Shown here piece by piece: positions 31,926-63,200 of a DNA stretch of 64,000 nt. The translations under genes were made by a program, and so were the position numbers. The notes beneath the pieces were generated by a model. The model made no database searches and was not told the DNA's origin. It was given only the letters and a program-made list of their open reading frames with translations. The first letter of the stretch is position 1, and each line of letters starts with the position of its first letter. Source of the DNA: Amoebophrya sp. A120 (Eukaryota; Protista; Dinoflagellata); the NCBI GenBank assembly GCA_905178155.1, contig CAJINV010000023.1:458914-522913 (forward strand), written 5' to 3'.

Positions 31926-32517
31926 GAAAAGCTCGCTGTGTATCAAATGCAAAAATGTCTGGGTCTGCAAGGTTGGAATTTGTGATGCTAACTTTGGATG
32001 CTAAAAAAATCTGTATTGCATGACCAGCAAGAGGATCCCAGTTTATGCTACGCGGGGAGGGCATTTGTCATGCGGGGTAGGCATCAGGAAGGCCTCTAAA
32101 AATATGTGATGCTAGATCATGCATTACAGACATCTGAGTCATGCAAAATATGCATGACAAACCTGGAAAGCTTCCAGACCCAGACACTTTTGCAATGCAT
32201 ACTGTGGCTCCTGTGGCTTATATGACTAGCAGTTTTAACAACTGCAGCTGCACCCTTGAAAATGTATATAATATCTTCCTACTTCTACACAGAATAGTTG
32301 TGTATCAGGTAATATTCAATGTTGTAGCGGGAGGCTATACGGTAATCCGTATGCGGAATGGTTGATATTTAAAAAAATACAAAAAAAAGGCGCGCAAAAT
32401 AAATTATTTACAGCTTTCGGCAAATACAACTTTGTTGATGACCTGATATTCTTTCGCGACGTGTCAGGTTCCTGTTTTAAACGAGGAGGCAAAGTCCTCC
32501 CGGGTAGTTTTTCTCAG

Positions 32518-33465
32518 TCCTCCCGGGTAGTGTGCCCAACTCTGTGCCCGCCGTCCCACGTCACCGTCGCCCTGTGTTCAGGCGTTATTCGCGGTCCTTT
32601 GCGTACGTCTGCCCTGCTCCGGGCCGCGCACTTGTGGTTGACCCCGCGCCGAGGCCTATGCGGCACTACTAGTTCACTTCGGCCGCGTATTTGCGGTTGA
32701 CCCTGCGCAGAGGCCTAGACGGCGCCACTGGTTCACTTCAGCCGCACGGGCTCCATGAATGTGTTGCGGCTTGGGACGAAAGGACACCACGGCGAGCTCC
32801 CTGCCTGCGGCAGCGGGGCCGACTGCGCGGCGGGCCCCCGCTGCGTTTCCCCTGTTGCGGGCGCGGAGCGATGTACGCGACAAGAGCCCTTGCATGCGAG
32901 TGGGAAAGGAAGGCGGGGGACCCCGAACAACACGGGGGCCCCCCGCGACCAGGTGAAAAAGGCGGGGGGCCCCCTTGGGTACCAAAGGCGGAGGCCGGGG
33001 GCCCCCCGCGCGCGGGAGAGAAAGGCGTGGGGCCCCCTTGGGTGCCCCCGGCCTCCAAAGGTGGAGGCCGAGGGCCCCCTGCGGGCGGGAGAAATTTACC
33101 GCGGAGAAGGACGGGGCCCCCCCCGGCCTCCGGCGGGCGGCCCGGCTGGGAGAAGGGCGGGGGCCCCCTGCGGAGGCGGAAGCGCGGGGGCCCCCTGCGG
33201 ACGCGGGATGCCCAGCGGGCGGTAAGGCGGGACGGAGGCGGGGGCCCCCTGTTTCACCAGGCAGGCGGCCCGGGAGAAGGGCGGGGGCCCCCTGTGGAGG
33301 CGGAAGGGCGGGGCCCCCTGCGGACGCGGGATACGCAGCGGGTGAGAGGGCGGGAGGCGGGGGCCCCCTGCTTTCCCCGATGGTATGCGCGACACAAAAA
33401 TAGTAACACTCATCGTAGCATCGTGAATACAAATCTAGGCCTCAGCACGTACCGGCCTCTCTTTA
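32518..33465. mobile_element. GC-rich 0.95-kb insertion bracketed by a 41-bp direct duplication
   Basis: TTAAACGAGGAGGCAAAGTCCTCCCGGGTAGTTTTTCTCAG at 32477-32517 and 33466-33506; internal GGCGGGGGCCCCCTG repeats. Confidence 0.75.
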
Positions 33466-33857
33466 TTAAACGAGGAGGCAAAGTCCTCCCGGGTAGTTTT
33501 TCTCAGGTCTAAGCTGCAAACTGAATCTGTAGTGCCTCTGATTGATTTAGCCGCAGAGTAAGTATGTTTAATATTCTTGAAGTAGCGCTAGCGTCGTGGT
33601 GAGAAGAAAGCACAGCTTTCATTTTTCACCGGAAGAACGCCAACGACTTCCATTCAGAACAAACAAACAAAGGTCAGCAGTGATTGTTTCTTTACTGTTT
33701 AGTGAATTCATTTGAACATTTCATTTTCGGCAATTTTTTTGAGTGTAGTTGCGCAGTTGGATATTTATATTGTCATACATCTTGTTGTAGATGTTGAACT
33801 TCTTCTTCTACTCTCCGCGACTTTGGTGTAGTGAAATGCAAATGCTGGCAATAAAGG

Positions 33858-36800
33858 TAGAGAATTATATTGAAGAGATGTTGAAGGTCATCGTGCCCGA
33901 CATCACTGCGATGAAAGAGCGCCATCACTTCGCATCCGGTGTCTTTGCAAAGATCGGCCAGATTTGTGCATTCACAATCAGGAATTCAAGCACTTCGACT
34001 CATTTTCCCCTGCTGTATTCTGGGACTTTGTGAAACAGACCGCAGGTGGGTCGAAAACCCACTGTATACGAGTGGGGTGTGCGCATTATCTATACGGACT
34101 CGAGCCTGTCGATGCAGTTTTGCGCCATTGTAGATGGTCCGCGGAGGATTTACTCTGCTACTACAACCGTATGGCGCTGTAGCTCTTGGCCGAAATTATA
34201 TGCACTCTTCACTGCGGAGGTTTCCGCTATGAAGGCCTGTCAGGCTTTCTGTTCGCACTGTCTGTTCCACAAGCACAAATGGGTGTCTTTATGTGGTTTT
34301 TCTTCCTCTTCTTCTTGTGCTTCACCTATTCTTTTTGTTCGCACCAACGGGCCTTGCTTCCTCCGTCACCGGGGTTGTCAATTTTGGTCTGACGACCCAC
34401 GTTCGTTTGCTCGGCCCGTTGTTGCTTCAGACAGATTTTGTTTTATAAAAGTTATGGTTTGTGTGATGAAGAAAGCGCAACGAGCCTAGCGAAGCGGCTC
34501 CTGGTGGTTTTGCGCGAACACAAAGCGCGTTTTTATAAAATTAAAGCCTCCTACCCGTTGTCGTTGTTGGTCCCGGGAAGACCCAAAACTCGAGGCCGTC
34601 GGTCGATTCGATGTCATTGATGATTTTTTTTGTCCCGCCCGTCCCTTCCCTGTCTTACTTTCTTTCGTCCTTTCTGCCTGAAGCAAAACCTCCTCCCGCG
34701 GGAGGAGGGGGGTTGTCAATTTTGGTCTGACGACCCACGTTCGTTTGCTCGGCCCGTTGTTGCTTCAGACAGATTTTGTTTTATAAAATAGAGAATTATA
34801 TTGAAGAGATGTTGAAGGTCATCGTGCCCGACATGTTTATTTTCGCCCGTCTGGCTGGTGAAAATGGAGACTTTGATTCGAGATTTTGTTTTTGTCCAGA
34901 GTTCGCCGTGCGCGTCAACAGTTATGACCCATCTTATCAAAGAAAAAAAGTTGGTTCGTCACGATCACTCATGCGCATTCTTGCAATACAAAATTGTTTG
35001 TCATGCGTAAAAATGCATCACAGCCAAACTTTATTAGGAATTTCCCTAGTGTTTCTGCAATACGAGGAAAGTTTGTGATGCTGAGAAAATTTGTAATGCA
35101 AAGCCTGCAAGTTAGTGACTGTGACAAACTTTTTTCTCTCCATAGACAACGTATATGACCTGCTCAAACGTTACATTCTCAAATCGGTTACCATAGAATC
35201 TGGAATTTGTGTTGGATGATGAGCATGACAGACGCGCAGACCCTTCCACTTTCTGCAATACAAATTTTGCCAGATTCTAGTGCAGATTTGGACTCCAGAA
35301 CTTGTCATGCGCAATCCTGTGGGAGTAGGGTAGATCATGCACTTCTTGCAGCACAGATTTCCATATTCTATTGTAGCGTTTGATGAGATTGTAGAGGTAG
35401 AGAATTATATTGAAGAGATGTTGAAGGTCATCGTGCCCGACATGTTTATTTTCGCCCGTCTGGCTGGTGAAAATGGAGACTTTGATTCGAGATTTTGTTT
35501 TTGTCCAGAGTTCGCCGTGCGCGTCAACAGGATGGAGACCTGATGGCGGGGCTTTGCAAGCCTTGTAGCGGCGCTCGGAAGGGGCGTGGCGGGCATGGTG
35601 CCGAAGGTGCGGAGGCCACTATTATGAAAGAGGGCGCCATAGCATCGCGATTCGTGATTTTCCATTGTTCTTGAGCATACCGTCGCGCTTGGCCGATTTC
35701 GGCTCCTGAAGGGGGTCAATCCGGGACCTCCTTTTTGGCCTCCCCCGAGAGCCGGAACCACGACGGTATGCTGGATCTCGATAGAGGTCCTTTTTGAAGG
35801 GTTTCGGCGATTCAAAAGGACCTCATTTGAGTCGCCGAATTGCAAAGCCGTGGAATTTGTATTTTCCGCCTTACATTCTATTCAAAAAGTGCCGCGATCA
35901 GCTCTTTTTGTGCAGGTTTTTGGCGGATACGCGGCGGCACGCGGCTGATGCACGACGCCAAAGCTGAAGAAATACAGGCGGAGCCCCGTGCTGTTGCTCA
36001 ATAAACTTTGGCGGCCAGAAGAAAAGGGCCACGAACAAAAAGGCAGCCAGCCAGAGACGAGGGTCTTCCACTGGTGGGGGGACCGGCAAACGCTGCCCCA
36101 CCGATCACAGGCACCTACAGGAAAGGCGCAGAAGCTGCCGTCGGGTGGGCTCAAGTGGAGATATAGCACATTGTAAGCCCGGCCAAGGCGGCATGCTCAG
36201 CAGCGCACTTGGAAAGTTGCCAAAAGTCCGCACCGCTAGCACCGGGCCCCTGGGTAGCATAGCGGCGCAAGCGTCATGTGCTTTTATTCGGTGGCGCTGC
36301 GCCATGTTTGGCAATGCGGCCGCAGCGCGTCGTGTTTTTCCCTCTCCCGGTGGCAACGCCCGTAGCCCAAACTGAAATCGGCCACGCCGCCTTCCATCCT
36401 CCACAAGAGGTCTGGCGGACTTTTCGTGGCCCGCAACCAAACGATATGACGAGAGTAGCCCGCAACCAAACGAAAAAGCAAAACGGATGACGAGAGTGGC
36501 GCGGCATTGTTTCGGGGTTGGGGCCCCCACTACACAACGGCGGGCGCGTTTTTCGTCGCTAGGCTTTCGGCCCCTTATTCTTTGTATCTATGCGAGAAAA
36601 ACCGCGCAGGAGACAACGCCACCTAGGCGGCGGCAGAATAATGGGCCGCGCGTTGGCGCCACTCTGACTAGCTCCGGTTGGGGACGGCCCTGCTTTTTTA
36701 GGTGCATAGCCCGTCGCCTCTCTGCCGCCGCTCACGTGAAGCCGCTATTTCCGACAGCGGTTGCGCCTACGTTTTGGGGCCAAGTAGTGGAGGGTGTGGG

Positions 36801-37996
36801 CCTGAGAGGCATCTGTTGGATCGCCTACTCTGTTGGCCCTTGCTTCTTCAAATGCTTCGGGTTTATGAATGCAGGCGCTCGCCTTACACTTAGTTTTATT
36901 GCGTTCACATATTCCAAGTCAACTAGTTCAAGTTGAGATCGGCCTAGCGATTTCATTGGGTGCTCTTTTTTGGCGACGTTCCGGCGACCGTGAAAAATAT
37001 CAAAAATCATGACAAAAAGTGGCGGCTTTTATTTGGAAATCAAATGGTCAATGAAAGAAGATAAAAAATTTTTGAATCCGCTAACTTTGAATCGCTCAGT
37101 CCATCTCATATTCGAGATTTTGTTTTTGTCCAAAGTTCGCCGTGCGGGTCAACAGTTATGATCCATCTATGGGGTTACGAAGATGCTTTTGGTTAACTCA
37201 AAGTTAAGGGATTTATTTCTTACCTTTCCGGATTGATATGCGAAAACCGAATTTCTCGGGTGATTGTAGTGGAGCGAAAAATAAGAAGAAACGGCTCCAA
37301 AAATGCACGGGCTGCTCAGCAAGGTTGTATGGAGCCGCCCCATATCTTCAGCGCGGAAACATGGCTACGCGACGCGGGTTTGTTGGTTTACAACGCCAGC
37401 CCAAGGGCCCAAAGTGGTGACCCATGTTGCCGTGGCGCCGATCGGGGCCGCGGTAGAAGCGCGTGCCCGCATCGCACCCGGCCACGAATGCAAACGGGCG
37501 AGCCGCCAGTTTACATCCCCGGGCGGAACGCGTCCGCGTGCGGCGCATCTGTGCGCGCACATAAAAACAAGCGCCCCCATATGAGCCACCACGGCAGGCT
37601 GCGCAATTCGGTGGCAGCCCCGGCAAAGTAAGTGGCCCCGCGCTCGGTCGTCGGTGTGCACTCAGTTGCGCGCGCGCCGGGCATTAGACAAGCAAAAAGG
37701 CCCATACCTACCTGCGCGCCGGCGCAAAGGGCGGGGCGACCGATCCGGCGCTCCAGAGCAAACAAAAGAGCAGGGGGGCCAGCGCTCTGGCAGATCCCTC
37801 TGCCGCCCGCCTGGCAACGGGCGGCGCCCCCACGCCTCCGTCGCCTGCGGGGCACGGCCGATGGGGCTCAACAATATCAATACTGGGCCCAAGCCCGGGC
37901 GCCGGGCCCCTTCCAGAGCCCAAGCCCAAGCGCCGGGCGTCGAGATTTTGTTTTTGTCCAAAGTTCGCTGTGCGCGTCAACAGTTATGATCCATCT
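33858..37996. repeat. Intergenic hotspot 1: backbone with interleaved 46-133 bp direct duplications separated by unrelated inserts
   Basis: TAGAGAATTATATT...CCCGACAT at 33858, 34789, 35398; an 80-mer at 34371-34450 and 34709-34788; TCGAGATTTTGTTTTTGTCC...CCATCT at 34878, 35487 (partial), 37112, 37940. Confidence 0.85.
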
Positions 37997-38472
37997 TCAC
38001 TTGACGGAAGTTTAATATTTGTTCTCCTGGAGGCCAGAGACTAGATTGCGCAGTGCAAGAAAGATATAAAGCGATTCGGTTCAATACGTAGACGTGAGGT
38101 CACACACGAACGTTTTAATCTAGCGGCTTTTTTGCCATGCATCGTGAAAAACGACTGGCAGTAGTTTTCAAGCGGCCGGAAGTTGTGTTTTTACACATCA
38201 TAAAAAAATAATTTGCGCTTATCAAGTGGCCGGGGCTGCGCCGGGGCAGGCAAAAGAGGCGCCCTTCTGAGGCGCCCACCGCTGTGGTTTCTGGCGGTTT
38301 GGGGCGCCCAAAATAATGCCAAGACGATAGAAACCGCCCACATTTGGGCTCCGCAAAAGTCGCCAAAAAAATCGAGCATCTTACAGGCGGGCTGAAGGCA
38401 GAAGGTTATGCCTTTTTGACAAAAAAAAAAAAACCAAAAACCCGCGCCCCGCCATAAGGTAAAAAGAGCGAC

Positions 38473-38494
38473 TCCGTAGCCATTTTGGCTCAAG
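38473..38494 (+). other. Genomic copy of the dinoflagellate spliced leader (DinoSL), relict type
   Basis: TCCGTAGCCATTTTGGCTCAAG is an exact match to DCCGTAGCCATTTTGGCTCAAG. It is followed by CA rather than the GT of an SL-RNA gene and ends 106 nt before ATG 38601. Confidence 0.92.
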
Positions 38495-49300: not shown

Positions 49301-52300
49301 TGTATTGCTAGGGTATGCATCACAGACATCATGGCTCATGCAAAACGTGCATGACAAGTGTCAGAATCTTCCAGACCCAGACATTTTTACAGTTGATAAA
49401 ATCCGCGCCGGCGCCTTCGCTTTCGGAAATCGGCAAGCAAGTGCTCCTGCCTAGCACGGAAGGGTTCCCCTGGTACCTACTACGATGAAAAATGCCCCGT
49501 CCCCATATCAAAACGGAAATCTGTGATGCAGATTTGTGGTCACAAATCAGCTTTGTAATGCTAGAAGGCAAAAGATGCGGACTGCAGTGCTGCCACCTAG
49601 CGTGGGAAATCCTTGCTGCTCCAGCATGACAGGAGGCAACTGGAAGTGGGAAACAGCATGACAGATTGCCTGCAATTCAGGCCGCAGCTGCGTCGCTTGG
49701 CCTTCTAGCAATACAAGTCGATTTGTGTACTCAAGTACAGCATCACAAATTTCCTTTCCGATATGGGGTGGGGGCTTTTTTCACATTGATAGTGCCTCTG
49801 GCTTTCCATCCTGCTGCAGGCAAGCGGAGGGATTTGTTGCGGCCTCATCATTCGCGAGTTCAACATCGTGCAAAAGGACTTCATGAACGCCATCTCGCTC
49901 ATCCTCACGGTTCTCATCACCTATCAAAAGGAAAAATCCCCCCTCCCCATATCAAAACGAAATTTGTGATGCTGGATTTGAGTACACAAATCAGGTTTGT
50001 CTTGTAGTAGAGCACTGCAGGCACATACGAAGCCCGAGCAAGGAGGTTTTGACATAGGCGCCCAGCATGGCAAACGTCTACGCTGTAGGACCAACAGCAT
50101 CACAAACCGCCTGCATTATGCGGCGGAGCCTGTGGAGTTGCCTTCTTGCAAGACAGAGCCGATTTGTGGTCACAAATCAGCATTGCAAATTTTCTGAGGC
50201 GTGTCTTTTCGATATGGGGAGGGAACATTTTCCCTCACGATATCACCGGCATCGTGTTCCGCGACGAGATCCACTGGCTGGTGCCGTATGAACTGCAAAA
50301 GTATCGTACTTTTGTATACATTGCATTACAAATTGACTTAGCATTACAAATTAAATTTGTGATGCGGATTTGCCTATAACAAAAAGATTTGTAATGCACA
50401 AACGCGATTAGTACGTGACTGCGATACTTTTGCAGTTCATATGCCGGTGGGCGCGGTGATTGTCACCCTCGCCACGTTATGGATTGCACATATCCCTGGA
50501 TGTCGGGAAGATTGCAGCTTGTGATCTGCATTTGGAAGATTCTAAAAAAAAGTGTATTGCATGAGCAGCAAGAGGAATCAGATTTTTGCTAGTACGCGGA
50601 CAGGGCATTTGTCATGCGGGATAGGCAACATCAAGAAGCCCTCAGTAGAATATTTATATTTGTGATGCTAGCACAGACAATAAACTTGCATTCTTCCAGA
50701 CCCAGATCGATATTTGCAGTTGATGCACATGTCTGTACAAGAGCACAAGGCCTATTCATCTCGGATCCCTCTGCAGCTGCAGCCGGGGCGGCCTCGGGGA
50801 GAACAAAGAACGACAAGGTTTCTACTACTTGCTGCCGACCTTCCAGCTCGGCCTTTGCGTAGCTTTTCTGAGCGCCGTGGCGGCGATAAAATTTGCTGGC
50901 ATTTTTGAAACCAGCAGCGTCGCCGTGTTAGGATCTACTTCTTCATCTTCATCGCAACATCTGTCGTATAATAATGGGGGCAAAAGTAGTGTTGCTGATC
51001 CTCTGGCAGCAAGGCTGGTGGTATATCACCCCAGAATTATCAAAGTGCAAAAAGCCCCCACGACCCCATAGTACTCAAAAGACAATTTGTGTATGCTGGA
51101 TTTGTTTAAACACAAACGAACTCTGTATTGCAGCAAGAGCCTGTCTGCATATTCTAAGCCCATTTGGGTACTACTACGCCTCCGGCTAGCAGCTGAGCAT
51201 GAGAAACAAGTCTTTGACATAGGCGAAACGCATGACAGACTCGCTGCACAATGCGCCACATGGGTGCTGTTTGCCTGGTACGCAAGACAGAGCTGATTTG
51301 CGGCCACAAATCAGCATCGCAAATTTCCTTTTCGATATGGGCAGTAGGGGGGATTTTTCCTGACGATAAGAATCAAGAACTCGCAAGTGGTCAACAGAAG
51401 GACAGCTGCATTGATGACAGAGACAGCAGTATGCAAGGAAAAAACTGCGTAAGCGTAACTTTGTCTTGCAGATGTTGCAATACAGTCACGCTTGTCATGC
51501 TGAACATGCATCAGAGGCTATTTTCCTACGTGTTTTCGCGTACTAGCTACGCATGGCAGGTTTTCTCTGTCGTGCAAAACAAATCTGTGATGCTGTTCCT
51601 GCAAAAAAGTTACACTTACACATTTTTTTTCTTGGATAAGCAGGCAGCTCGGGCGGGGGCATCAACATCAACAACGAAGAGGCTATCAACTGCAAAAGCG
51701 TCTGGGTCTGGAAGGCTGCAACTTGTAATGCTAGCTCTCCATACCTAGGAAATCTGTATTGCATAACCAACAAAAGTCGCAGCCTCTTTTGCACAGGCAG
51801 AAACGCAGTTTCTCATGCGGATTTCCTACGAGAAAGCGTTCTCAAAAGTTGTCATGCTGTGATGCATTTGGAACTGGTTTCCAGACCCAGACATTTTTGC
51901 AATTCATAGAGGCAGCACGCGGACAACTAGTCGCACGACTAGTAGACTCTTTATCAAATGTAAAAATGTCTGGGTCTGGAAGGATGTAACTTGTGATGCT
52001 GCGTTTGGATTCCAAAAACATCTGTATTGCATGAGTACCAAAGGGAATGCAGTTTTTGCTACGCTGAGAAGGCATTTGTCATGCGGAATAGGCATCAAGA
52101 AGCCCTCAAAAAATCTGTATTGCTAGGGTATGCATCACAGACATCATGGCTCATGCAAAATGTGCATGACAAGTTTCAGAATCTTCCAGATTCAGACATT
52201 TTTACAGTTGATACTCTTCCCCACATCATGACCACCTTCATCAAGGGGGCCATAGTATCTTCGAAGTGAAAGACCAGTACGACACGGCAGGACGGTCCAG

Positions 52301-52367
52301 CGTTGTTGACCAGACAGCCCACACTACAGCGCTGATGACGCAGCTTCTGCTCCTAGCAAATAACTAA
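46395..52367 (+). CDS. Second SLC35A-family nucleotide-sugar transporter with a C-terminal extension
   Basis: ATG 46395. Spliced: SLILLRLS, VVLYQEIFKVIIC, LPPFLYAVQNNM, IDPATFLIGMQQKTIWAAIFS, QTRRQWVALLLMYVGVIVVQ, NGLAGVCTEKLL, QASGGICCGLIIREFNIVQKDF, ...LLANN* (TAA 52365-52367). 16 elements removed. Confidence 0.85.
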
Positions 52368-52731
52368 GAAGTTCTTGTCTAGGTGGTTTCTACGATTTAC
52401 TTTACACTGACAGGAAAATTCATTTTTTCTGTGTTCGACCTTCAACGATTTAGGATTTACAAACATATGCATATGCATCCCAGGGCCAGGAGATCGTGAT
52501 GATCGATGGAGATCTGCATATAATACTCAGTACAGGATATAATTACAGCTGATTCTGATCAGCACCTATAGATGGTTTATATCGTTCAAAAAAAACTCCA
52601 AAGCTTTAGTTTCTTTCTCGTAAAAATATCCGTGGTTGATTTGCTTGCTCAGCAACATCCTTGGTATAGTACTACTTTTTGCCAAAAGTAGTAGTAAAGA
52701 GCTGCCTGCTTCAAAACGCATCTGGTCGTGC

Positions 52732-55700
52732 CTCCAGAACGAGATATTTATTTCAGTGTGATGTCGTGAGGTGAGTATAAGACAAAGGCCATCGCCCTGA
52801 CTCCCTGTCAAGGGTAGACACCAATCAAAAGAAAATCACCGGCCGTGCCGCAGCGGACCCGCAGACATCCCGGCTAAATAGTAAGGGGCATTGCCTAGGC
52901 GTGCCGCGAGCCCCCGGCCCAGCACGGCGCGCCTGCTTCCGCGGCGCCGGCGCCATTTTTTTGCGCTGCCCCGGAAGCTAATCTCGGCACACTTTTGTCC
53001 GCTTTTTTTTCTTTTGAAAAGTGCGGCCCGCGCTGCCACTTTTGCTGCCACAATTAGCTGCCACAAATTTCAAAAACGCCCACTTTTGCTCCGGAAAAAA
53101 ATGCCCAGAAATTGCGCCACAATTTGCTGCCACAATTCGACCACGCAAAAACGCTCCTGATTTCCTGTACAAAAATTGTGGCAGGTTGGGCGCAGCGATT
53201 TGTGGCAATATTTGTGGGCATTTTTTTTGCGCCGGGGGACGATGAAAAAGATGGTCGCGTGGGCGGTTTCTGGAAGCCCGAAAATGCTCATTTGTGGAAC
53301 TACTGAAAAGCGTGCGAAACGGGTTGCGTGCCTCCCTTCCCACTCCCGTCTCCACAGCTACGGTCTGCGTGGAGGACTGGCCGATACTCACGGCGGGCGA
53401 GGCAGACAGGGCATTTTGATTTTTCTTCGAAGTACACATGCAGTCCAAAGCCTGCCAACCCGGTGCCAGGAGACAGCGCAGCGGCTGTCATGGCACAGGG
53501 AACACACGACAGGCCGCCAAAAGTCAACAAAACCAGGCGGGCAAGCTCGTCTTCATATCTGCCAGTAGCGCTAGCAGTGGGCTTCACCCTTTTGGGCCGG
53601 CCTTCTTCTTCTTTTTTCTACAGGTGCTCTCCCGTTTATGCACAACTTTTGTTATTCTTTCGCGCCGCCCCACCTCGCTTCCATCGCCATGGCTGCTAAT
53701 GCTCTCAGACACATCGATGGAGAAAGCAACAGCAGCGCATGGGCAGGGAGTACGTCTCTCCTACTTCTCGCTTCCTCGGACTCGGAATCGCGAAACGGTA
53801 TCTCAGGGAAAGCCAAAAATACGGGCTGCCAAAATGTGTGGCGCGTATTCTACACCCCTTGATCGAAGTTCTAAAATGTGGGCATTTTTTTGGACAAAAA
53901 TCTGTGAGCGATATGGCCCGGGACCATCCATATGACTCCAGAACGACATATTTATTTCAGTGTGATGTCGTGAAGTGAGTATAAGATTTTACGGTACTTC
54001 AAAGGCATACAAGCGGGCAAGCGCAAAAGAGATCTGCATAGGCGTAGAGATACAGCTTAGTACTTAGCTAGCTACCCGAAAGCCAGGAGAAAAGTGTCCT
54101 CAGGAGCAGCCGCGGTCATGGATTCAGTCCTTGGCACTGTGGCCTCATGGTACAGGACACGCAAGGCCTTGGCCGCGACTTTGGTGTATGGGCAGGGCCT
54201 TCGGGATAAGTCAGCGACATTCTGACGGGTTCGCCTAGAAGCGGCAGTCTGAAACGCGCGCCGCCTCGGGACATGTCCCGCCCTGGCTTTGGAAGTGCCC
54301 CAAGCGGCAAATACAGAGTACGCGGACACCTTCAGCGCCCTTGAATTTATTCCCCGCCCGGCTCTGCAAGTCTCCGTCTTGGCCGAGTTCACACTTCTGT
54401 TTCGTGTTATTATTGCCGGCACCTTGGGGCCATGTTTCTTTTTGAATTCCATCGCCCCCGCCAATTTCTTTTTGAATTCCGTTCCGGCCGCCAATTTCTT
54501 TTTGAAATTGCTTAGGCCAGCCAATTTCCTTTTGAAATTGGGCACTCTGCGAGATCGCTCTGGTATTGGTGTGGTCTGTGGCGTGGCGTATTTGATGTTA
54601 GGCACCAGGAAGGCCCGATCAATCGAGAGGCGAGGTTGCATCTGGGCCACCTTTCGGCCGCCTCGGGAATGGAATTGTGTTGGCCCCATGCGTGGTGGCT
54701 TTGGGCGGATGTGGTGTCTGTCAGCTGGATTTTCGAAGGGCCCTGGCGGTTCAATCTTGAGCCGCCATGCCATGGCCCAGAGCTTGTGGCCGTGCTAATT
54801 CCAAGCCAAACACCCTCCCAAACTAATGAGACGCATTTAAGTGGTGGCGTTGCGTTTTTCAAGCGAAATGCTCCGTGTAAGTACATGGCATAGGGCTTGC
54901 GAATGGTCCACAACCGGGGCGCGTCGATATTTATTTCAGTGTGATGTCGTGAGGTGAGTATAAGAAGAGTCATGTCAATATCTGGTGTTCCACCTGTGCG
55001 GCCCTCCAGTAATTTTGTAATTCGCGAAACAACCATCCACGCAACATGCGCCAAAATCCAGCCCCTAGGCGCCAGCGCCCTGGACTCTCCTAGTGTGGCT
55101 CAGGGCGATGGGGCGCAGGCGGGTGGTGTGGCTAGAAGCGTTGGAACACACGCAGGCGGCTGGCTTGGCCATGGGAGCTCGCAGAGCGAACAGCCCCACA
55201 GCTCGCGCCCAGATCCAGCCGCCTGCATTTCAGCGCCCACCTTTGGCCCTTCTGGCGAGGCTCAGAGCACTAGAACATAGGCGGAAGGTTTGGCCACGGG
55301 GGCTCGCAGAGTGAGCGAACATCTGCGCCCCTTGCGCTCAAATTAGTTCGGCCGCCTAAACTCCGGCGCCCGCTCTGGACTCTCCAGGCAAGACTTGGCT
55401 TGCCAGAGCGACCTCGCTCGCAAAGAGAGCATCTGCGCCACTTGCGCCCCGATCGATGTCGCCGACTACACTCCAACGCCGCTGATTCTTCTCGCGCCGC
55501 CCGGGGCGTTGGAATGTAGGCGGCTGGGCTGGCCACGAAAACGCCCGCGCTCTGCGAGCGTCTGCGCGCCTTGCGCCGAAATCCAGCCGACTGCGCCCCA
55601 GCGCTCTGTCGGCCCCTATGGTGGAAGCCGTCTCGAAGGCCAAGGAAGGCGCCGAGCCCGGGGGAAGGCAGAGGCGCGAAGAAGTAAGCGCGCCGCGTAG

Positions 55701-58700
55701 CGCGACGGAAAGAACCTGAGCAGCCCCGCCCGCCTTCAAACTAAAGCGGCTCCGCCCGCCTTCGGAAAAAATAAAAAGCGAAACAAAAGCGGCGCCGCCC
55801 GCACCAAAAACCGAAACAAACCATAACGGCTCGGCCCGCATCGGAACACGAAGGAGCGAAACCACAGCGGCGCCGCCCGCATTTGAAACCCACCGTAACG
55901 GCCCCGCCCACAAAAAGCAAAAGCCTTGGCTTGTTTGGCCGAGGGCGCAACCCACCGAAGGACGCAACGCCGTCGCTGTTTCGGGTTCTATCGTTGTTTC
56001 GCCTCCACGCAAGTGAGAGAGGCGCACTGCCATCATAAAGGAAGACCAGTACTGCCATCGTAAAGGAAGCTGCCTCAGCGCCGCACGCTCGACGGCGTCC
56101 GCTCGAGGCCCCCCAAAGGCCCCCCGAAGGCCCCCCGGAGGCCTCTGAACGCCCCCCGGCCGAAGGCCCCCCAAAGGCCTCGAAAGGCCCCCCGAAGGCC
56201 CCCCAAAGGCCCCCCGAATGGGTGTCCGAGAGAAAGCTGAAATTTAGTACAACTTTTCGGGGGCATCGGAACCCCGAAGGGGGTTCAATGACCACCCGAA
56301 GGGGGTCGCGCAAGGGGGGCCATCGGGGGGCCTTTGGGGGGCCTTCGGGGGGCCTCGGTTTTCGAAGGGGTAGTTCAGGGCAGCCAAGGGGGGTCAATGA
56401 ACCTCCTTCGGGGGGCCTTCGACCCCTCAACGCCCTAAATGATCATTAATAATACTTAATCTGGTGTTCCACCTGTGCGGCCCTCCAGTAATTTTGTTCT
56501 CATCTGGTGCCTTGTGGCTGGCGTAAGCCTGCTTTTCATTTTGATTCGCATGCTTTTTTCAATGTTGCTTCGCCGTCGCAGATGAAGATCCGGGGAATCT
56601 GATAAGATGTGATGTCGGGAGTGAGGAACTAGCTTAGGCTCCTATGTGAACTAGTAGTTAAGGCGATGCTTCAATGAGGCTCCTGAAGGCTCCGCGGAAG
56701 AGAGCCAGGCCTGCCCACTGCTGCCGCCGTTAAACTGCCCACATTTGGTGCCTTATGGCTGACGTAATGCTGCCGGGGCCCCGGGCGGGGCCCTGACATC
56801 TTGGTAGCGTGTTGAAGGGGCTCTGAAGTAAAATTGCCTTTTTTTGTCATGGAAAGTCCATCGTAGCATGCGGGCGCTTGGAGCTCTATTGAGAAACTCA
56901 GATCAACGATTCAAGAGGTGGCCGAAACCTCTCCAGGAAGACGCCAAAAAAGCCCCCCTCTTTTCTACAGCATAGCATCGGCGAAAGCAAATCAGGGGGC
57001 CCTCTCTGGAGACCCCACCTTCCTACCTCACTCCTTATTTAGCTGGTTCAAATTGGAGTCTAGTTTAGACCACCGAAACACATTCCAAAAAGAGGCAGCC
57101 TGTATCGCTGTGTCGCAGTGCTGGAATGGGCGTCGTTTCTGCGTCACCTTTTTGAGGGCAGCATTACGCCAGCCAGAAGGGGTCGCCAAATGCCGCTTCC
57201 AGCCATGGCTCTGCGATGGAAAAGCGCCACCATACTAGCGGTCTACCGCCGCCTTCCTACCTTCCTCCTTATCTAGCTAGTTCACATTGGAGCCTATTTT
57301 AGATCACCAAAACACATTCCAAAAAGAGGCAACCTGTGCCGCCGCGTCGCAATGCTGGAATGGGCGTCGTTTTTGCGTCACCTTTTTGAGGCTATACCGG
57401 CTTCTTTCAAAATACAAAAGCTGATTTTTGAATCGAAATTGAATTAATCAAGTAATTTGTCTCATAGTGTTCCACCTGTGCGGCCCTCCAGTAATTTTGT
57501 TCTTGCGTGTTTCGGTTCAATAGAGAATTTTTGGTCCATTTTTTCGCCCTTATAGATTATAGGGGCTTCCTTAAAAAATGATTAGTAGGGAGATCACTTT
57601 CTAGAAGCTTCCTCTAAGTGAGCACTTAGAGGAAGCGTCTAGGGGAAACTTCTAAGGGAGCACGTAAAACAAAAAGACTGGCACGGTGGGGACCAAACAT
57701 CCCGCGGGTGTGTCTTCCTCGCGGGCGGCCCGGCCGGTGTTTAGCAGCCCTATTCTGGCTACCCCCATACCCCGGCCCCGTTTGGGGGGGCTGGGGGGGC
57801 CGATGAAACAAACCCGGCAAACCGAAACGGGCGGCCGTTCCCACTATTGCCGAGCGAGAACCACCAAAAAGGCAAGGGCGCAACGCCCTATTCGTCTGGG
57901 GATATATCAATCTGGAAAGGTGCTCCGAAAATGCTCCGAAGATGCGCCGAAGAGAGCGACTGGCTCGCTCGCATTGTGGGGGCCAGAAATGCTGCAAGCG
58001 CGCCCGCCTCGTGGGCAGGAAATAGCACAGCAATAGCGGTCTTTTTGGCTCCGATTTGTTTCTTTCCCTAGATTCGAGGGCGGTCCATAGGTGTTGGGTA
58101 GTAAGGGGGGCCGGTCTAGAAGTTTTTTTTTGGTACGGAGCGGCCCCACCAGGCGAGTTTCTTTTTAGAATGAAGGGGCCGGCGAATCGGCAGGGGAGGC
58201 GCTGCGGGAGGTCCTACCTAGAAATGAGACAGCCCACAAGAGGGCAATCAGGCCAAGGCCCGCGGCCGGGTCGGTGGGGGCGAGCTAGAAGCTTAGCTCA
58301 GGGAAGGAAAGAAGGCGCGCCATCTAATGTGGGCCGCTACTAGGGAAGGGCGTTGCGGTTACTAGCAAGCGCGGTCCGGTTTTCCATGCTAAAACCGCCC
58401 GCGGGGTTTCTAATAGTGGCCGCGCTTGCGCTAGGTAGCAGATTCCCAATGGTAAGAGTCTTCCGCCTAGCCGGCACCCCCACGCTTGCCAAGTTTTGTC
58501 CTGGGTGTTTACGTCTAGATTTACTAGACGACCTATCGCCGGCGTCCTGGACGCCGGCGTAGTAGTCTAGTGTCAATATCTGGTGTTCCACTTATGCGGC
58601 CCTCCAGTAATTTTGTTGCGTGTTTCGGTTTAAAAATATTTTTGTCGTACAGTGTCTCTCCCTGTCTGGGAAGATGATGATCGGGTCGAAATTTACAGGA

Positions 58701-60096
58701 GGGCCGCTGTGGAAGTATGCCGTTTGTCCACGGCAAACGCGTCGGCCTCCTATGTGTGTGTCCGGGGGGTAATTGGTTTGGGGGTTGGCGCACTGCCATC
58801 GATGAGCTTCTCTGATGCGTCTAGCGGCCATGAATTCTTCAGGCCACACAGAGCGACGCCCCCTGTACCTGTTGCAGCGATAATTGGCGCCCATGTCTGT
58901 GACGCAACACGACGGGCAAAGGAGGGGCATGGCGCAGGCCTCGCTTCCTGTGCAGCAGCGCTCCTATTCCTCTGCAGCTCGGCGCCCTTGCCGGGATTGC
59001 TTATGGTTCCGCGCACTACGATTGGGAGCGTCGTTCTGCGCGCCCCCTCTCAGGAGGCAGTCGCAGTGATATCGACGGTGCCTGGCGCCATTGCTCGCCG
59101 GCGGGGCGGGTTTAGGACATTGCCCCTTGTGCATGTTGTGGGTGATCGAGAGCCGCTTCTCTTTGGTATTCGTCATGTACTTGAAACTCCGGGAGCAAGC
59201 TTCAAGTAAAGAGCTTTCTTTCTCGATTTCAAAAGAAGTTCAAAAATCGTTCAAAATCCTTTCAAAATGCGTTCACCGATGAGGCTATTGGTTTGAACGC
59301 ATTTTGAACGGATTGTGAACCGAGTTTTGAATTCCGTTTTGAAATTCAGAAAAGATTTGAATGGCGTTTTGAAATTGCCGGGAAAGTTGAAATACGTTTT
59401 GAAATTGGCGAGAAAGTTGAAATACGTTTTGAAATTGTGTTGGACTTTAAATCATGTTTTGAAATGCGCCTCTGTGCTGAGCTTTCTTGCGAATGTTGTC
59501 GCCAAGCTCGGCAGTTTTGGCGCTATAAGGCTCGCGCCATGACCCCAATCCCTATCTGGTAGCGGCATGGAGAGCGCTTGCGTGTTTGGGTCTCTAGAAA
59601 GGCAGGGCCGTGTGGGACCCACGTATGCCAGCCATGCTTGCGCTTCCAGCCGGCAAGAAGGTCGCCGGCAACGCGAGGCGAACCCGCGCTCTTACTTTGC
59701 GGCGGCTGTGTAGACGTAGCCGCGCACCACTTTGGTGCGGGTCGTTTTTCCCGGTGTTTCAACGTGAGCAGGGCCTCTGGCTGCACTCCCTGGGGCTTCA
59801 GGAATTGGGCTTCAAAGGCGTGCGCGCCGACGCACCTACAGACATCTCGCTGTTGCCCTCGCTCTGAGCCCCAAGAGCATTGGACGACCGCCCACAGGTG
59901 TTTGCTTCTGTGGCGTTGAATGGGCTGGAAATGTTTTTTGTCAGGGATGTGGTGTTGTGTATCTGGGTGTGTACACACTACGAAACCCTGACATTTTGAA
60001 TTCGTTTTGCATTTGTTTTGCAATGAAATCAGCGTCCGTATACTTTGGATTTAAGTCTCTCCCTGTCTGGGAAGATGATCGCGTCGAAATTTACAG
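52732..60096. repeat. Intergenic hotspot 2: six ~1-1.4 kb inserts separated by 40-60 bp direct duplications of a backbone
   Basis: ATATTTATTTCAGTGTGATGTCGTGAGGTGAGTATAAGA at 52732-52782, 53936-53986, 54926-54965; GTGTTCCACCTGTGCGGCCCTCCAGTAATTTTGT at 54973-55018, 56459-56497, 57467-57517, 58571-58630; GTCTCTCCCTGTCTGGGAAGATGAT..TCGAAATTTACAG at 58654-58698 and 60055-60096. Confidence 0.9.
57517..58570 (+). mobile_element. Helitron-like H1 copy (intergenic)
   Basis: 5' TCAATAGAGAATTTTT...CGCCCTTATAGATTATAGGGG; 3' end identical to the 11884-11917 hairpin+CTAG, followed by T. Confidence 0.75.
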
Positions 60097-60236
60097 ACCA
60101 AGCCTGCAGTTGTAGTTGAAAGAACGGCGCAGTGTATAGTTTGATTGTACTACGTCGGTGCTTGTTCCTCGTGGAAGTAGTTTATTCTACGTACTATCGT
60201 TGGAGACTTTGACTTCTTCAATATTCGCTTTTCAAC

Positions 60237-63200
60237 ATGCCATCAACTCCGAGCAGCGGCTCGCGTCGCTGGATCGAGTGGTGCCGCATGTCGTGTGCGG
60301 ACGTGGAGGACATTGTGCGGGAAGTGGCAGCGCAGCAGCCGCAGGAGGATGCTGGTCCTGCGCACGACGTCGCTAGCAGCTGCATCTCGGTCCTGCTGCC
60401 GGTGGAGGAGGGGCAGGCAAAGACTTCGTCGCCGAACTACTACGCTGCTGGCATGTCGACCGGGTATGTTGCCCTGCAACTGCGGCCGGAGCAGGTAAAA
60501 TGCGTGCCCGCGAGTCGCGTTGGTTTTCCCGGGCAAATAGTATCGATTTCAGACGCTGGTGCAACTGCCACCTCGGAGGCGTTGAAAATTATATCCGTTG
60601 GCTGCGTGGATGCGACCCGGGTGGTCCAGCTTCATATCAAACTCGAAGTAGAACAAGAAGTCGTCCTGGCGGGTCTGCGGCCAGGGAGCTTTCTCGTGAT
60701 CGACCCGCTTTTGACGCTTCTAGTTGCGGCGCAAGAGGAAGAGCAGCACCAGAGCAGCGCAAAAGAAAGAGCACAAGAACGCGAGGACCACCTCCAGGGC
60801 GGGAACATCAACAGTAGAACAGGAATATCCTGCGCAAAAGTGTATCGTACTTGTACTAATCGCAGTCATGCAAGACAAATTTCTTCTTCAAGCAAAATCA
60901 GCATGACAAATTCCGTTTGTCATGCTGGTTAAATTTGTATTGCAAAAATACTACGAGTACGATTATACTTTTGCATTTCATAAGGAACCATTTTCGAATT
61001 CCTCACGGAGATTTTTCCCTTTCTCCGCAGCATTACGGGTGCGGGGGTCCGGCGAACCCACGCGGTGATCCGTCGCCACATTCCTCGGCTACAGACCTTC
61101 GAAATCCCGTCGGGAACCAAGGTCGCGGACTGGCAAGTGCCGCTGGAGTGGGCTTGCGAAGCCGCCTACCTGATCGCGCCCAACGGCGACAAGCTGGCGG
61201 ATGTGTCCGAGAATAACCTGCACCTTATCAAAATGAAAAATCCCCCCTCACCATATCAAAATGGAAGTCTGTGATGCGGGATTTGTGATCACAAATCAAG
61301 TTGTCATGCTAGAAGGGAACAAGAGATGCGGACTATAGTGCTGGGTGGCGTGAGAAAGCCTTGCGGCTTCAGCATGACAGGAAGCAACTGGAAGTGGGAA
61401 ACAGCATGACAACTTGCCCACAAACGAGGCCACAACGGCGGCTCTTGGCCTTCTAGCATTACAAGTCGATTTGTGTACTCAAATACAGCATCACAAATGT
61501 CCTTTTCGACATGGGGAGGGGAAATTTTTCTTCATGATACACCTCATGAACTATTCCCGACCCTTCCGCGGGACGATGAGTCTCGAGGATATCCTGTGCA
61601 AAAGTATCGTACTCGTAGTAATTGCAGTCATGCATTACAAGTCTCTTTCTTATGGAAAATCAGCATTACAAATTTTATTTCTCATGCTGGGGAAATTTGT
61701 AATGCATTTATACGAGTACGATGCTTTTGCAGTTCATAGAGGAGCTGCAGGAGCAAAAGCACCTCCACTCGATCCCCGAGTGCCCCGACGCCATTCCCTA
61801 CATGGCCTCCTACTACAAGGACGCCTGGGCCTTCTGCGTGCGAGACAGCTTCCGGAAGCAGATGGCTCCGGGACCGTACGAGGTCGTTGTGGACACGAAA
61901 CTCTTTCCCGGAAGCCTCACGATTTCCGAAGTGGTCCTCCCGGGTCGAAGTTCTTCCTCGCGCGAGGTGTTGATTTCCTCCTACACTTGTCACCCCTCCA
62001 TGGCTATCAGTTGCAAATATCGACGATCTGGGTCTGGAAGTAGCGTGTAAACTTGTCATGCAGGTTTTCCATGACCCATGAGGTCTGGAATGCGGGACCT
62101 AGCATGACCGACTCTGGGAGGTCTCTGTCATGCTGATGCATGAGATGAAACTCGATCCCAACTTGGTCGAAAGTCGACAGCTTTTGGCACTCATGGCGCA
62201 ACACTAATCTTTGCATGATTCGGATTTAGCATGACAAGTTGCAATCTACTTCCAGACCCAAAAATATTTGCAATGCAAAATGGCCAACGACAGCATGTCC
62301 GGCGTCGCCGTGGCGGTTTTTCTCTACTATGCATTGCAAAAGTCTCGTACTCGGATCAATGCATGACAAATTTCCTCAGCATGAGAAATGAAATTTGTCA
62401 TGCGGATTTACCTTGAGAAAAAAACTTGTAATGCATGATTGCAATTACTACGAGCACGATACTTTTGCACAGGATATCCACCACGAGCTCGCGAAAATCC
62501 CGCAGGCGGACCGCGCGTTTACCTATCCTGAGTAAAAACGTCCCCACACCAGAGTCAAGATGGAAAATCTGCTAGACAAATCAACCAGCTTTGCTTGTTT
62601 CGCATGACAAGTTTGTCCTCGTAGTGTAATCCTGTTTAGTTTCTAGCTCAGCAGCATGACAGACCTAGCGCAGCATCATGTTGCTGATTCTAGCATTACA
62701 AATTCCAAAAAGACGACTAGCGATGAATGTTTCTCATTTGGTTCCGCATGAGAAACGTTTTTGGCATGCGTATTTGCATCACAACTATGGGGTGGAAACG
62801 CTTTTACACAGGATATTACGTACCGCTTCGTTTTCCTGCCGGAAACCATCGGCGGGGTCGCCTACCTGGCCTTATCAAATGCAAAAGTGTCTGGGTCTGG
62901 AAACTTGTAATGCTAAAAATGAATGATAGACGCACTGCAGTACGCAGCTATGCACGACAAATTTTTTGGCTGCCATGTCTTACGTATTCCGCATGGCACG
63001 CTGCGTTTTTTCATGACAGGTAAGAGGGCTTTTTCGTGCCTATGGAACACAGATTCTCGAATCATGCCAGACAAGCATGACAAACTTGCATTCTTCCAGA
63101 CCCAGACATTTTTACAGTTGATAGGCCTACCGCGGGATGCATTTGAAGAAAACCTTGGTCGCCGGCTACGTGCTCACCTGCATCGGGGACCGGGCTGTAT

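What the first reader, a model, noticed from the sequence alone, without database searches (positions are those of the whole stretch)
52732..60096. Hotspot 2: repeat / kilobase-spacer array with six unrelated inserts packed into ~200 bp of backbone
Seen: three successive backbone segments occur 3x, 4x and 2x. They are separated by inserts of ~1150, 940, 1440, 970, 1050 and 1360 bp that are mutually unrelated, GC-rich and lack credible ORFs. One insert is an H1 Helitron-like copy, which normally makes no TSD; another ends TCTCATA like an insert in hotspot 1. Collapsing the array leaves a short AT-rich stretch ending 140 nt before ATG 60237. Inference: an undescribed acquisition process that repeatedly adds ~1-kb mobile-DNA pieces at a promoter-proximal site with 40-60 bp duplications. 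It is formally like spacer acquisition or a TE-trap locus, although long-TSD retroposition in trans would also explain it.
Basis: partly seen in the sequence, partly recalled or inferred. Interest (0 to 1): 0.8.

Follow-up and report, generated by a model that had tools for sequence, protein, structure and literature searches.

The report
Stacked transposon ends with long duplications
In a marine parasite's genome, six different ~1-kb pieces of mostly mobile DNA are stacked into a ~190-base stretch between two genes, each flanked by a 37-63-base copy of its landing site, most likely because host repair finishes half-done transposon insertions at a repeatedly hit spot, not because a CRISPR-like system collects them.

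Summary
The array is real. Backbone segments occur 3x, 4x and 2x, separating six 0.94-1.44-kb inserts within 192 collapsed bases. It is not a spacer array: each insert has its own 37-63-nt target duplication. Several inserts are transposon pieces with one natural end at a junction. I4 is a TAT...ATA inverted-repeat element lacking its left ~50 nt, which another genomic copy keeps. I5 ends exactly at a Helitron-like CTAG. TAT[CG] ends meet a junction in 5-6 of 12 inserts against 1.4-2.0 expected (post hoc). Target-copied filler sits at three other junctions; none of the six has a poly(A) end. Best reading: one-ended insertion finished by host repair, as in aberrant retroviral integration; break-first capture is the close rival. 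The scan noted this insert class on another piece of this Amoebophrya genome (e1-10627074). New here is the targeting: later inserts avoided 6.9 kb of earlier ones (P about 4e-4), at the junction between one transcript's 3' end and the next one's 5' end. The site is not shown to be a promoter.

The parts
52729..52782 (+). Backbone copy A1, left copy of the I1 duplication (54 nt, or 51 exact-seeded)
52783..53932 (.). Insert I1, 1150 nt; mostly single-copy depth, right part multi-copy; right end ...CATA (tentative TAT-type terminus)
53933..53986 (+). Backbone copy A2, with 3 private substitutions confirmed by DNA contigs
53987..54925 (.). Insert I2, 939 nt, multi-copy, 30-nt modules at 54430-54540; right end reads TATCG inward only through 4-nt microhomology
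54926..54965 (+). Backbone copy A3 (40 nt, identical to A1)
54973..55018 (+). Backbone copy B1; begins at the A^T site used by the 3' end of I5
55019..56458 (.). Insert I3, 1440 nt, GC 0.64, hairpin and 11-nt repeats; no natural end recognised; 1193-nt unbroken single-copy contig
56459..56500 (+). Backbone copy B2
56501..57466 (.). Insert I4, 966 nt: inverted-arm element with intact right terminus (TCTCATA) and missing left terminus; 8 nt at the left junction match the target; covered by an RNA-type contig
57467..57517 (+). Backbone copy B3
57518..58570 (+). Insert I5, ~1050 nt, non-autonomous Helitron-like element: 3' hairpin 11 nt before terminal CTAG; 63-nt duplication
58571..58630 (+). Backbone copy B4 (2 substitutions and a 3-nt deletion against B1+B3)
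58654..58698 (+). Backbone copy C1
58699..60054 (.). Insert I6, 1356 nt, multi-copy in parts, long hairpin 59219-59352, 30-nt modules; no natural end recognised
60055..60096 (+). Backbone copy C2, 12 nt before the AG at which downstream RNA-type contigs begin
52221..52820 (+). Last exon (stop at 52268-52270) and 3' region of the upstream nucleotide-sugar transporter gene; an RNA-type contig runs through A1 into I1 and joins 52820 to 54572
60108..60820 (+). 5' region and first exon of the downstream DUF4910/DUF2172 gene (ATG 60237); RNA-type contigs begin at 60108 and 60118
32477..37997 (.). Hotspot 1: inserts J1-J5 with 41-149-nt duplications, same signature; used as comparison set
26731..28028 (+). 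K0: lone 1242-nt insert with a 28-nt duplication inside a reading frame

Best explanation
The array is six separate insertions into a 192-base stretch between two co-oriented genes, each of which likely began when one end of a loose transposon piece was joined to the site and was likely finished by host repair that re-copied 37-63 bases of the target and joined the other, often trimmed, end. Shown: the duplications, their boundaries, the forced order (I5 before I3 and I4), the natural 3' end of I5, the intact right and missing left terminus of I4, and the clustering. Inferred: who made the first joint (a TAT...ATA-family transposase for I1, I2, I4; an HUH/Helitron enzyme for I5) and that a repair polymerase made the copy. 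Also inferred: the site is hit again and again because it is an open, nick-prone RNA-processing boundary (3' end of one transcript, trans-splice acceptor of the next), where the duplication leaves one intact copy of the signals and insertion is therefore tolerated.
For: I4: contigs of both DNA runs join the left part of I4 to the reverse complement of its last 50 nt (joint 56501 or 56527 to 57417, opposite strands, side 50). Its inner inverted arms sit 125 nt from the left junction but 161 nt from the right. So another copy has both termini and this one lost the left. I5: the 3' junction coincides with the family end, where 4 contigs per run run off into other flanks at 58571; 3' hairpin z=-6.65; two relatives sit at A^T without duplication, and 8 empty sites exist. 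TAT[CG] meets a junction in 5 of 12 inserts (strict) or 6 of 12 (relaxed), null mean 1.4-2.0, P 0.0002-0.0013; all 126 termini of the 63 introners found begin TAT by the search rule. J3 starts at the exact terminus of a whole introner and runs on through 9 nt into a second, truncated one. Target-matching letters lie at the left junction in 3 of 24 junctions tested (J1 14 nt p<0.0005; J4 and I4 8 nt p=0.008 each); in I4 and J4 this is the end opposite the natural terminus. The same anatomy (one normal end, one often truncated end, large host duplication) is described for one-ended retroviral integration (PMC5041404, passages and Discussion). Targeting: P(no later insert inside an earlier one) 3-6e-4; P(11 inserts in at most 2 of 6 gene-free stretches) 3e-4. 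RNA-type contigs place transcript ends at the site.
Against: No natural end is recognised in I3 or I6 (2 of 6). The ends of I1 and I2 rest on a 3-nt motif with a mismatch or microhomology. The TAT test was devised after seeing the data. Whether the 5' end of I5 is trimmed or an intact subfamily end cannot be told. The model needs two unrelated enzymes to pick the same 190 bases. The length range (10 of 13 duplications in the window are 37-63 nt) is narrower than the hundreds to thousands of bases in the retroviral case, which suits a break-first model as well. Ordinary 5-bp-duplication introners avoid these stretches (1 of 63), so normal transposase preference does not explain the site. The clustering P values assume independent events and hand-drawn gene limits, and old nested insertions could be missed. 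No second strain or empty allele was seen.
Confidence: 0.5

Rival explanations
1. Break-first capture: two nearby nicks on opposite strands open a staggered break with 40-60-nt overhangs at a fragile intergenic site; fill-in makes the duplication and end-joining captures whatever linear DNA is loose, often excised transposons.
For: Explains the mix of insert classes, the narrow length range, the two inserts without recognisable ends, the fillers and the near-coincident duplication boundaries (3 within 1 nt against 0.8 expected, P=0.047; 5 within 3 nt against 1.9, P=0.039). I1 and I3 have no near-identical donor in the DNA runs (single-copy contigs), which fits moved rather than copied DNA. Paired nicks 43-49 nt apart give tandem duplications in mammalian cells (PMC8355091, passages).
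Against: Zero-loss natural ends and the A^T site of I5 suggest enzyme-made joints. The passages read show duplication without capture of kilobase inserts. The boundary test is weak.
Confidence: 0.25
2. Retroposition in trans: a LINE-type enzyme that makes long target duplications copies transcripts of repeats into the site.
For: Long, variable duplications are known for Dualen and R9 LINEs (PMC9977147, passages). Amoebophrya holds non-LTR elements (PMC7789003, passages). K0 has A7 at its right end. I4 is covered by an RNA-type contig. A complete spliced-leader-like 22-mer lies ~480 nt past hotspot 1.
Against: Longest A run in the last 15 nt of I1-I6 is 2; ends coincide with DNA-element termini; J3 keeps two unspliced introner copies; no RT-like Pfam hit in 10 insert ORFs; no hammerhead among Rfam matches to E=5.
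Confidence: 0.1
3. Single inserts arose in different alleles and were stacked into one array by unequal exchange between the duplicated segments.
For: The substitution pattern is not a simple clock: A1=A3 while A2 differs at 3 places; in hotspot 1 the copies group in pairs.
Against: Explains the stacking but not the duplications; still needs the same site to be hit in many lineages; 37-63 nt is short for homologous exchange (own knowledge).
Confidence: 0.07
4. A dedicated acquisition system (spacer-like integrase) adds transposon fragments to a programmed array, for silencing or memory.
For: Strong local targeting; two such arrays in 64 kb; part of the array is in RNA-type contigs.
Against: No fixed repeat, length, junction motif or polarity; repeats differ between hotspots; lone inserts of the same kind exist, one in a reading frame; the only CRISPR-repeat Rfam match is E=3, below threshold and inside an insert.
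Confidence: 0.05
5. Misassembly of a repeat-rich gap.
For: No contig spans the array; 4 of 12 junctions are not among listed pieces; local letter conflicts inside I5.
Against: 5 of 12 junctions are bridged with 0 differences, 3 of them by an RNA-type contig of a second study; the copies carry private substitutions; I1 and I3 sit at single-copy depth.
Confidence: 0.03

Closest known systems
One-ended (aberrant) retroviral integration finished by host enzymes (PMC5041404; passages and Discussion read)
   Same: One normal element end, one often truncated end, extra letters copied from nearby DNA, and a host duplication far longer than the normal 5 bp.
   Different: Here the inserts are non-coding DNA-transposon and Helitron-like pieces fixed in a protist genome, duplications are mostly 37-63 nt rather than hundreds to thousands, and events pile up at one site.
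Amoebophrya introner elements (PMC7789003, PMC12130899; passages read)
   Same: Same genome context; I4, J3 and probably I1, I2, J4, J5 end in the TAT...ATA termini of the window's 63 detected introners.
   Different: Introners have both inverted repeats, a 3-5-nt direct repeat and lie in genes (62 of 63 here); these inserts have one end, 37-63-nt repeats and lie between genes.
Non-autonomous Helitrons; Replitron-1 (PMC10288648, first part and section 9 read)
   Same: I5 has a 3' hairpin, CTAG end and A^T site. Replitron-1 shows that an HUH element can leave variable duplications with one precise and one fuzzy end.
   Different: Helitrons normally leave no duplication, and the two relatives in this window have none. 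The passage read gives no 60-nt duplications for Replitron-1, and no terminal direct repeat stood out in I1-I6.
Long-duplication LINEs: Dualen, R9 (PMC9977147, passages)
   Same: Variable duplications over 50 nt around an insert.
   Different: No tail, no RT, and the inserts are not one family.
CRISPR arrays (features recalled)
   Same: Formal repeat-insert-repeat layout made by duplicating the target.
   Different: No constant repeat, kilobase inserts, no polarity, three different segments duplicated.

Membership tests
One-ended integration completed by host repair | One junction at the element's natural end | tested here: met
   Direct for I4 and I5, tentative for I1 and I2, not seen for I3 and I6; 5-6 of 12 inserts window-wide
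One-ended integration completed by host repair | Other end truncated or rearranged | tested here: inconclusive
   Met for I4 and J3; undecidable for I5; family consensus unknown for the rest
One-ended integration completed by host repair | Host duplication much longer than the normal one | tested here: met
   37-63 nt in 6 of 6 against 5 nt for introners
One-ended integration completed by host repair | Enzyme-made first joint and polymerase-made copy | not testable with these tools
   Needs de novo events or biochemistry
Helitron (I5) | 3' CTRR end with subterminal hairpin | tested here: met
   10-bp stem ending 11 nt before terminal CTAG, z=-6.65
Helitron (I5) | Insertion at A^T with no duplication | tested here: not met
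   A^T is used, but with a 63-nt duplication; the relatives at 10460 and 24118 meet it
Helitron (I5) | 5' TC terminus | tested here: inconclusive
   Relatives start TA; I5 could start TC at 57517 or be trimmed by about 10 nt
Helitron (I5) | RepHel partner in the genome | not testable with these tools
   No genome held; the I5 ORF has no Pfam hit
Amoebophrya introner | Inverted repeats at both ends | tested here: not met
   0 of 6 inserts above the shuffle 95% level in the terminal 80 nt; I4 equals it
Amoebophrya introner | 3-5-nt direct repeat | tested here: not met
   37-63 nt
Non-LTR retroposition (TPRT) | Poly(A) or tandem 3' tail | tested here: not met
   A run at most 2 in the last 15 nt and T run at most 5 in the first 15 nt of I1-I6; K0 has A7
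Non-LTR retroposition (TPRT) | Variable-length target duplication | tested here: met
   28-149 nt across the window
Non-LTR retroposition (TPRT) | A LINE family with such duplications in the genome | not testable with these tools
   No genome held
CRISPR-type array | One repeat of constant sequence and length | tested here: not met
   Three segments, six different boundaries
CRISPR-type array | Polarised addition at a leader | tested here: not met
   I5 must precede I3 and I4; zero-difference copies are in the middle and diverged copies on both sides
CRISPR-type array | Cas1-like integrase in the genome | not testable with these tools
   No genome held

The most novel reading that the evidence does not exclude
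Amoebophrya has a recurrent nick-and-capture route at transcript-processing boundaries that traps ends of any active transposon class with a 40-60-nt duplication, building transcribed archives of mobile-element fragments, a eukaryotic trap locus that could feed silencing. Its splicing machinery removes the debris without GT-AG ends, as in the 1751-nt skip seen in the upstream transcript.
Probability: 0.12. Interest if true: 0.85.

Novelty: new variant of a known kind. Interest (0 to 1): 0.52.

Why it matters
It points to a standing route of genome growth in an introner-rich parasite: half-done insertions by unrelated transposon classes, including a Helitron-like one that normally leaves no duplication, are closed with 40-60-nt duplications and pile up at particular gene boundaries. 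The junctions give testable handles on the unknown introner transposase and on break repair in dinoflagellates. The duplication keeps processing signals intact, which would explain why a 0.65-kb spacer could grow to 7.8 kb between two expressed genes. It also shows that CRISPR-like repeat-insert layouts can arise without an acquisition system.

Tried and rejected
No whole genome is held, so copy numbers come only from contig depth and no genome-wide scan was possible. Two exact-pattern scans of metagenome contigs (backbone B; Helitron-like hairpin) gave 0 loci. Run X8 (raw RNA reads, same species label) laid 0 reads: no test. No joint skipping a whole insert is among the 15 of 17 joints shown in the DNA runs, but repeats over 31 nt hide such joints in contigs, so this is not used; programmed excision (IES-like) was set aside because I1 and I3 are at single-copy depth like their flanks. 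Rfam to E=5 gave only sub-threshold hairpin matches, 9 and 14 rows. Terminal inverted-repeat test: 0 of 6 above the shuffle level. Only 1 of 12 insert ends folded like a Helitron hairpin. I4 as a whole does not fold better than shuffles (z=-1.44). The bacterial promoter scan does not apply to this organism. Sequence look-ups of I5 and I4 and a 'near' look-up in earlier findings returned nothing. No junction consensus was seen by eye across 12 inserts. Penelope/Chlamys origin was considered (PMC8557442, passages): no hammerhead match, and that clade lacks canonical ones, so it is neither supported nor excluded. J2's inner 80-nt duplication was left out of the 12-insert tests.
Full report
Context. 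The window is eukaryotic, with all recognised genes on the + strand and exons interrupted by TAT...ATA inverted-repeat elements with 5-nt duplications (63 found by a script rule that misses nested or decayed ones). A complete 22-nt spliced-leader-like motif (name recalled) lies at 38473-38494. These features match the introners described for Amoebophrya (PMC7789003, passages), and earlier scan notes name the genome as Amoebophrya; I did not test the taxon by a protein search. The array lies between a nucleotide-sugar transporter gene (PF04142, E=1e-18; stop at 52270) and a DUF4910/DUF2172 gene.

Observation. Backbone segments A, B and C occur 3, 4 and 2 times. Six inserts total 6.9 kb; the collapsed core is 192 nt and the original spacer about 650 nt. 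Shuffles give no such repeats (78 against a maximum of 0 in 200). Each insert has its own duplication: I1 54 nt (3 differences), I2 40 (2), I3 39 (0), I4 37 (0), I5 63 (2 plus a 3-nt gap), I6 45 (1 plus a 3-nt gap). These are overlapping target duplications, not one repeat. Geometry forces I5 before I3 and I4; the other orders are open. The same signature occurs in hotspot 1 (J1-J5, 41-149 nt, plus an inner 80-nt case) and once in a reading frame (K0, 28 nt); a sensitive scan found no other local-only long repeats of this kind in the window, apart from a 143-nt repeat inside I4.

Reality of the assembly. Contigs of two DNA-type runs (one sample, possibly the source) and two RNA-type runs (a second study) were laid. 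With 0 differences and at least 31 letters on each side they bridge A1|I1, I1|A2, A2|I2, I3|B2 and B2|I4 (5 of 12 junctions); B1|I3, I2|A3 and I6|C2 are covered with 29-30 letters; four are not among the listed pieces (most pieces are not shown). No piece spans the array. At 58269-58503 the contigs disagree with the window, so part of I5 may be locally mis-polished.

What the inserts are. Depth in X1 is 17-26 over most of I1 and 29-53 over I3, but 105-243 over I2, 70-156 over I4, 46-510 over I5 and 54-188 over I6 (depth sums are not true copy numbers). I5 is 72-82% like two other copies in the window, has a 10-bp hairpin 11 nt before a terminal CTAG, and its 3' junction is where other copies run off into other flanks. 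The two relatives sit at an A^T step inside an introner with no duplication, and 8 empty versions of that site exist. I4 has inner inverted arms 125 nt from the left and 161 nt from the right junction. In both DNA runs a contig joins its left part to the reverse complement of its last 50 nt, so another copy has both termini and this one lacks the left. I1 and I2 can be read as ending in a TAT-type terminus, with a mismatch or 4-nt microhomology. I3 and I6 show no recognisable end. I2 and I6 share a weak 30-nt module. In hotspot 1, J3 is a whole introner from its exact terminus, 9 nt, and a truncated second introner. Over 12 inserts, TAT[CG] meets a junction in 5 (strict) or 6 (relaxed) against 1.4-2.0 expected, P 0.0002-0.0013; the rule was chosen after seeing the data. 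Letters matching the target lie at 3 of 24 junctions at p<=0.008 (J1, J4, I4). I1-I6 have no poly(A) end and 10 insert ORFs have no Pfam hit.

Targeting. If the whole spacer were an even target, the chance that no later insert fell into an earlier one is 3-6e-4; six sites within 150 of 654 nt, 0.003; 11 inserts in at most 2 of 6 gene-free stretches, 3e-4, though one stretch with 6 or more alone is only P=0.05 (limits drawn by eye, events assumed independent). Duplication boundaries nearly coincide more often than expected, weakly (P 0.04-0.05). Only 1 of 63 intact introners lies in gene-free DNA.

RNA. X3 and X4 lack the introners at 60820-60983 and 61220-61540 and have no cover over most of I1 and I3, so they behave as RNA. 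Downstream contigs begin at 60108 and 60118; the AG at 60108-60109 is a likely trans-splice acceptor (inferred; the leader letters were not shown). An upstream contig runs through A1 into I1 and joins 52820 directly to 54572, ending at 54926; the skipped 1751 nt are bounded by an 8-bp inverted repeat, not GT-AG. This is either non-canonical splicing or template switching. Another contig covers 56351-57433 (I3 end, B2, I4). The hotspot is therefore a transcript 3'-end / acceptor boundary; a promoter role is not shown.

Mechanism. One natural end, one trimmed end with locally copied letters and a long host duplication is the anatomy of one-ended retroviral integration completed by host polymerase and recombination (PMC5041404, passages and Discussion). 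I commit to this at 0.5. Break-first capture at paired nicks (PMC8355091, passages) explains the mixed cargo and narrow lengths about as well and differs mainly in what starts the event (0.25); together, repair-made duplications account for about three quarters of my belief. LINE-type retroposition (PMC9977147, passages) is 0.1, allele stacking 0.07, a dedicated acquisition system 0.05, misassembly 0.03. Replitron-1 shows that an HUH element can leave variable duplications (PMC10288648, first part and section 9).

Novelty. Nine paper searches ran. One search (Helitron, target site duplication, long duplication, insertion hotspot, dinoflagellate; at least 4 terms) gave 0 papers. One search gave 3, of which I read passages of PMC12130899 and saw only the listing of the other two. 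The passages read from PMC7789003 and PMC12130899 describe 3-5-nt repeats or family-typical duplications, not 40-60-nt ones. I did not read their supplements, which may list such repeats, nor the 2023 Current Biology introner paper (seen only as a reference), and subscription journals are largely outside the library. The scan's note e1-10627074 reported the insert class on another piece and proposed repair of a half-done insertion; I read it before framing my model and tested the idea here. The verdict is a new variant of a known kind: the mechanism has precedent, while the cross-class, fixed, site-stacked form was not found in these searches. Interest 0.52.

Noticed in passing
window 52821-54571: An RNA-type contig skips 1751 nt (most of I1, A2, half of I2) between an 8-bp inverted repeat, without GT-AG; neither RNA-type run covers 52857-54128. 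Possible ad hoc non-canonical intron in a 3' untranslated region.
   Followed up: partly
window 38473-38494: Complete 22-nt spliced-leader-like motif about 480 nt past hotspot 1 and upstream of an ORF, not followed by GT. PMC7789003 reports a single complete copy per genome; relic of a retroposed gene or that copy, not tested.
   Followed up: no
window 10460-11919 and 23215-24118: Two diverged Helitron-like copies sit at the same A^T step of an introner's terminal motif, and the run-off consensus of other copies shows the same flank: a rolling-circle-like element that appears to target introners.
   Followed up: partly
window 26731-28028: K0 interrupts a reading frame that resumes after the second 28-nt copy; it starts with a 20-nt tandem unit overlapping the duplication and ends TCTCATA, 2 nt, A7. 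Splicing not tested.
   Followed up: partly
window 27985-28000, 56450-56458, 60038-60054: In K0, I3 and I6 the last ATA lies 9, 4 and 12 nt before the junction and is followed by CT in all three; post hoc, unexplained.
   Followed up: no
window 34371-34450 and 34709-34788: An 80-nt exact duplication nested in J2 whose second copy ends exactly at J2's junction with the backbone.
   Followed up: partly
window 52771-52776 and 58646-58652: The backbone holds a canonical donor-like GTGAGT in segment A and acceptor-like TACAG ends before and in segment C; the RNA-type contig reads through the A1 donor unspliced.
   Followed up: no
window 18846-19760: Tandem array of 96-nt GC-rich units at 95-98% identity inside an intervening sequence.
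   Followed up: no
window 27150-27490 and 40241-40860: Related GAGAGGGT-type hairpin repeats inside K0 and in a separate ~950-nt element without long duplication.
   Followed up: no
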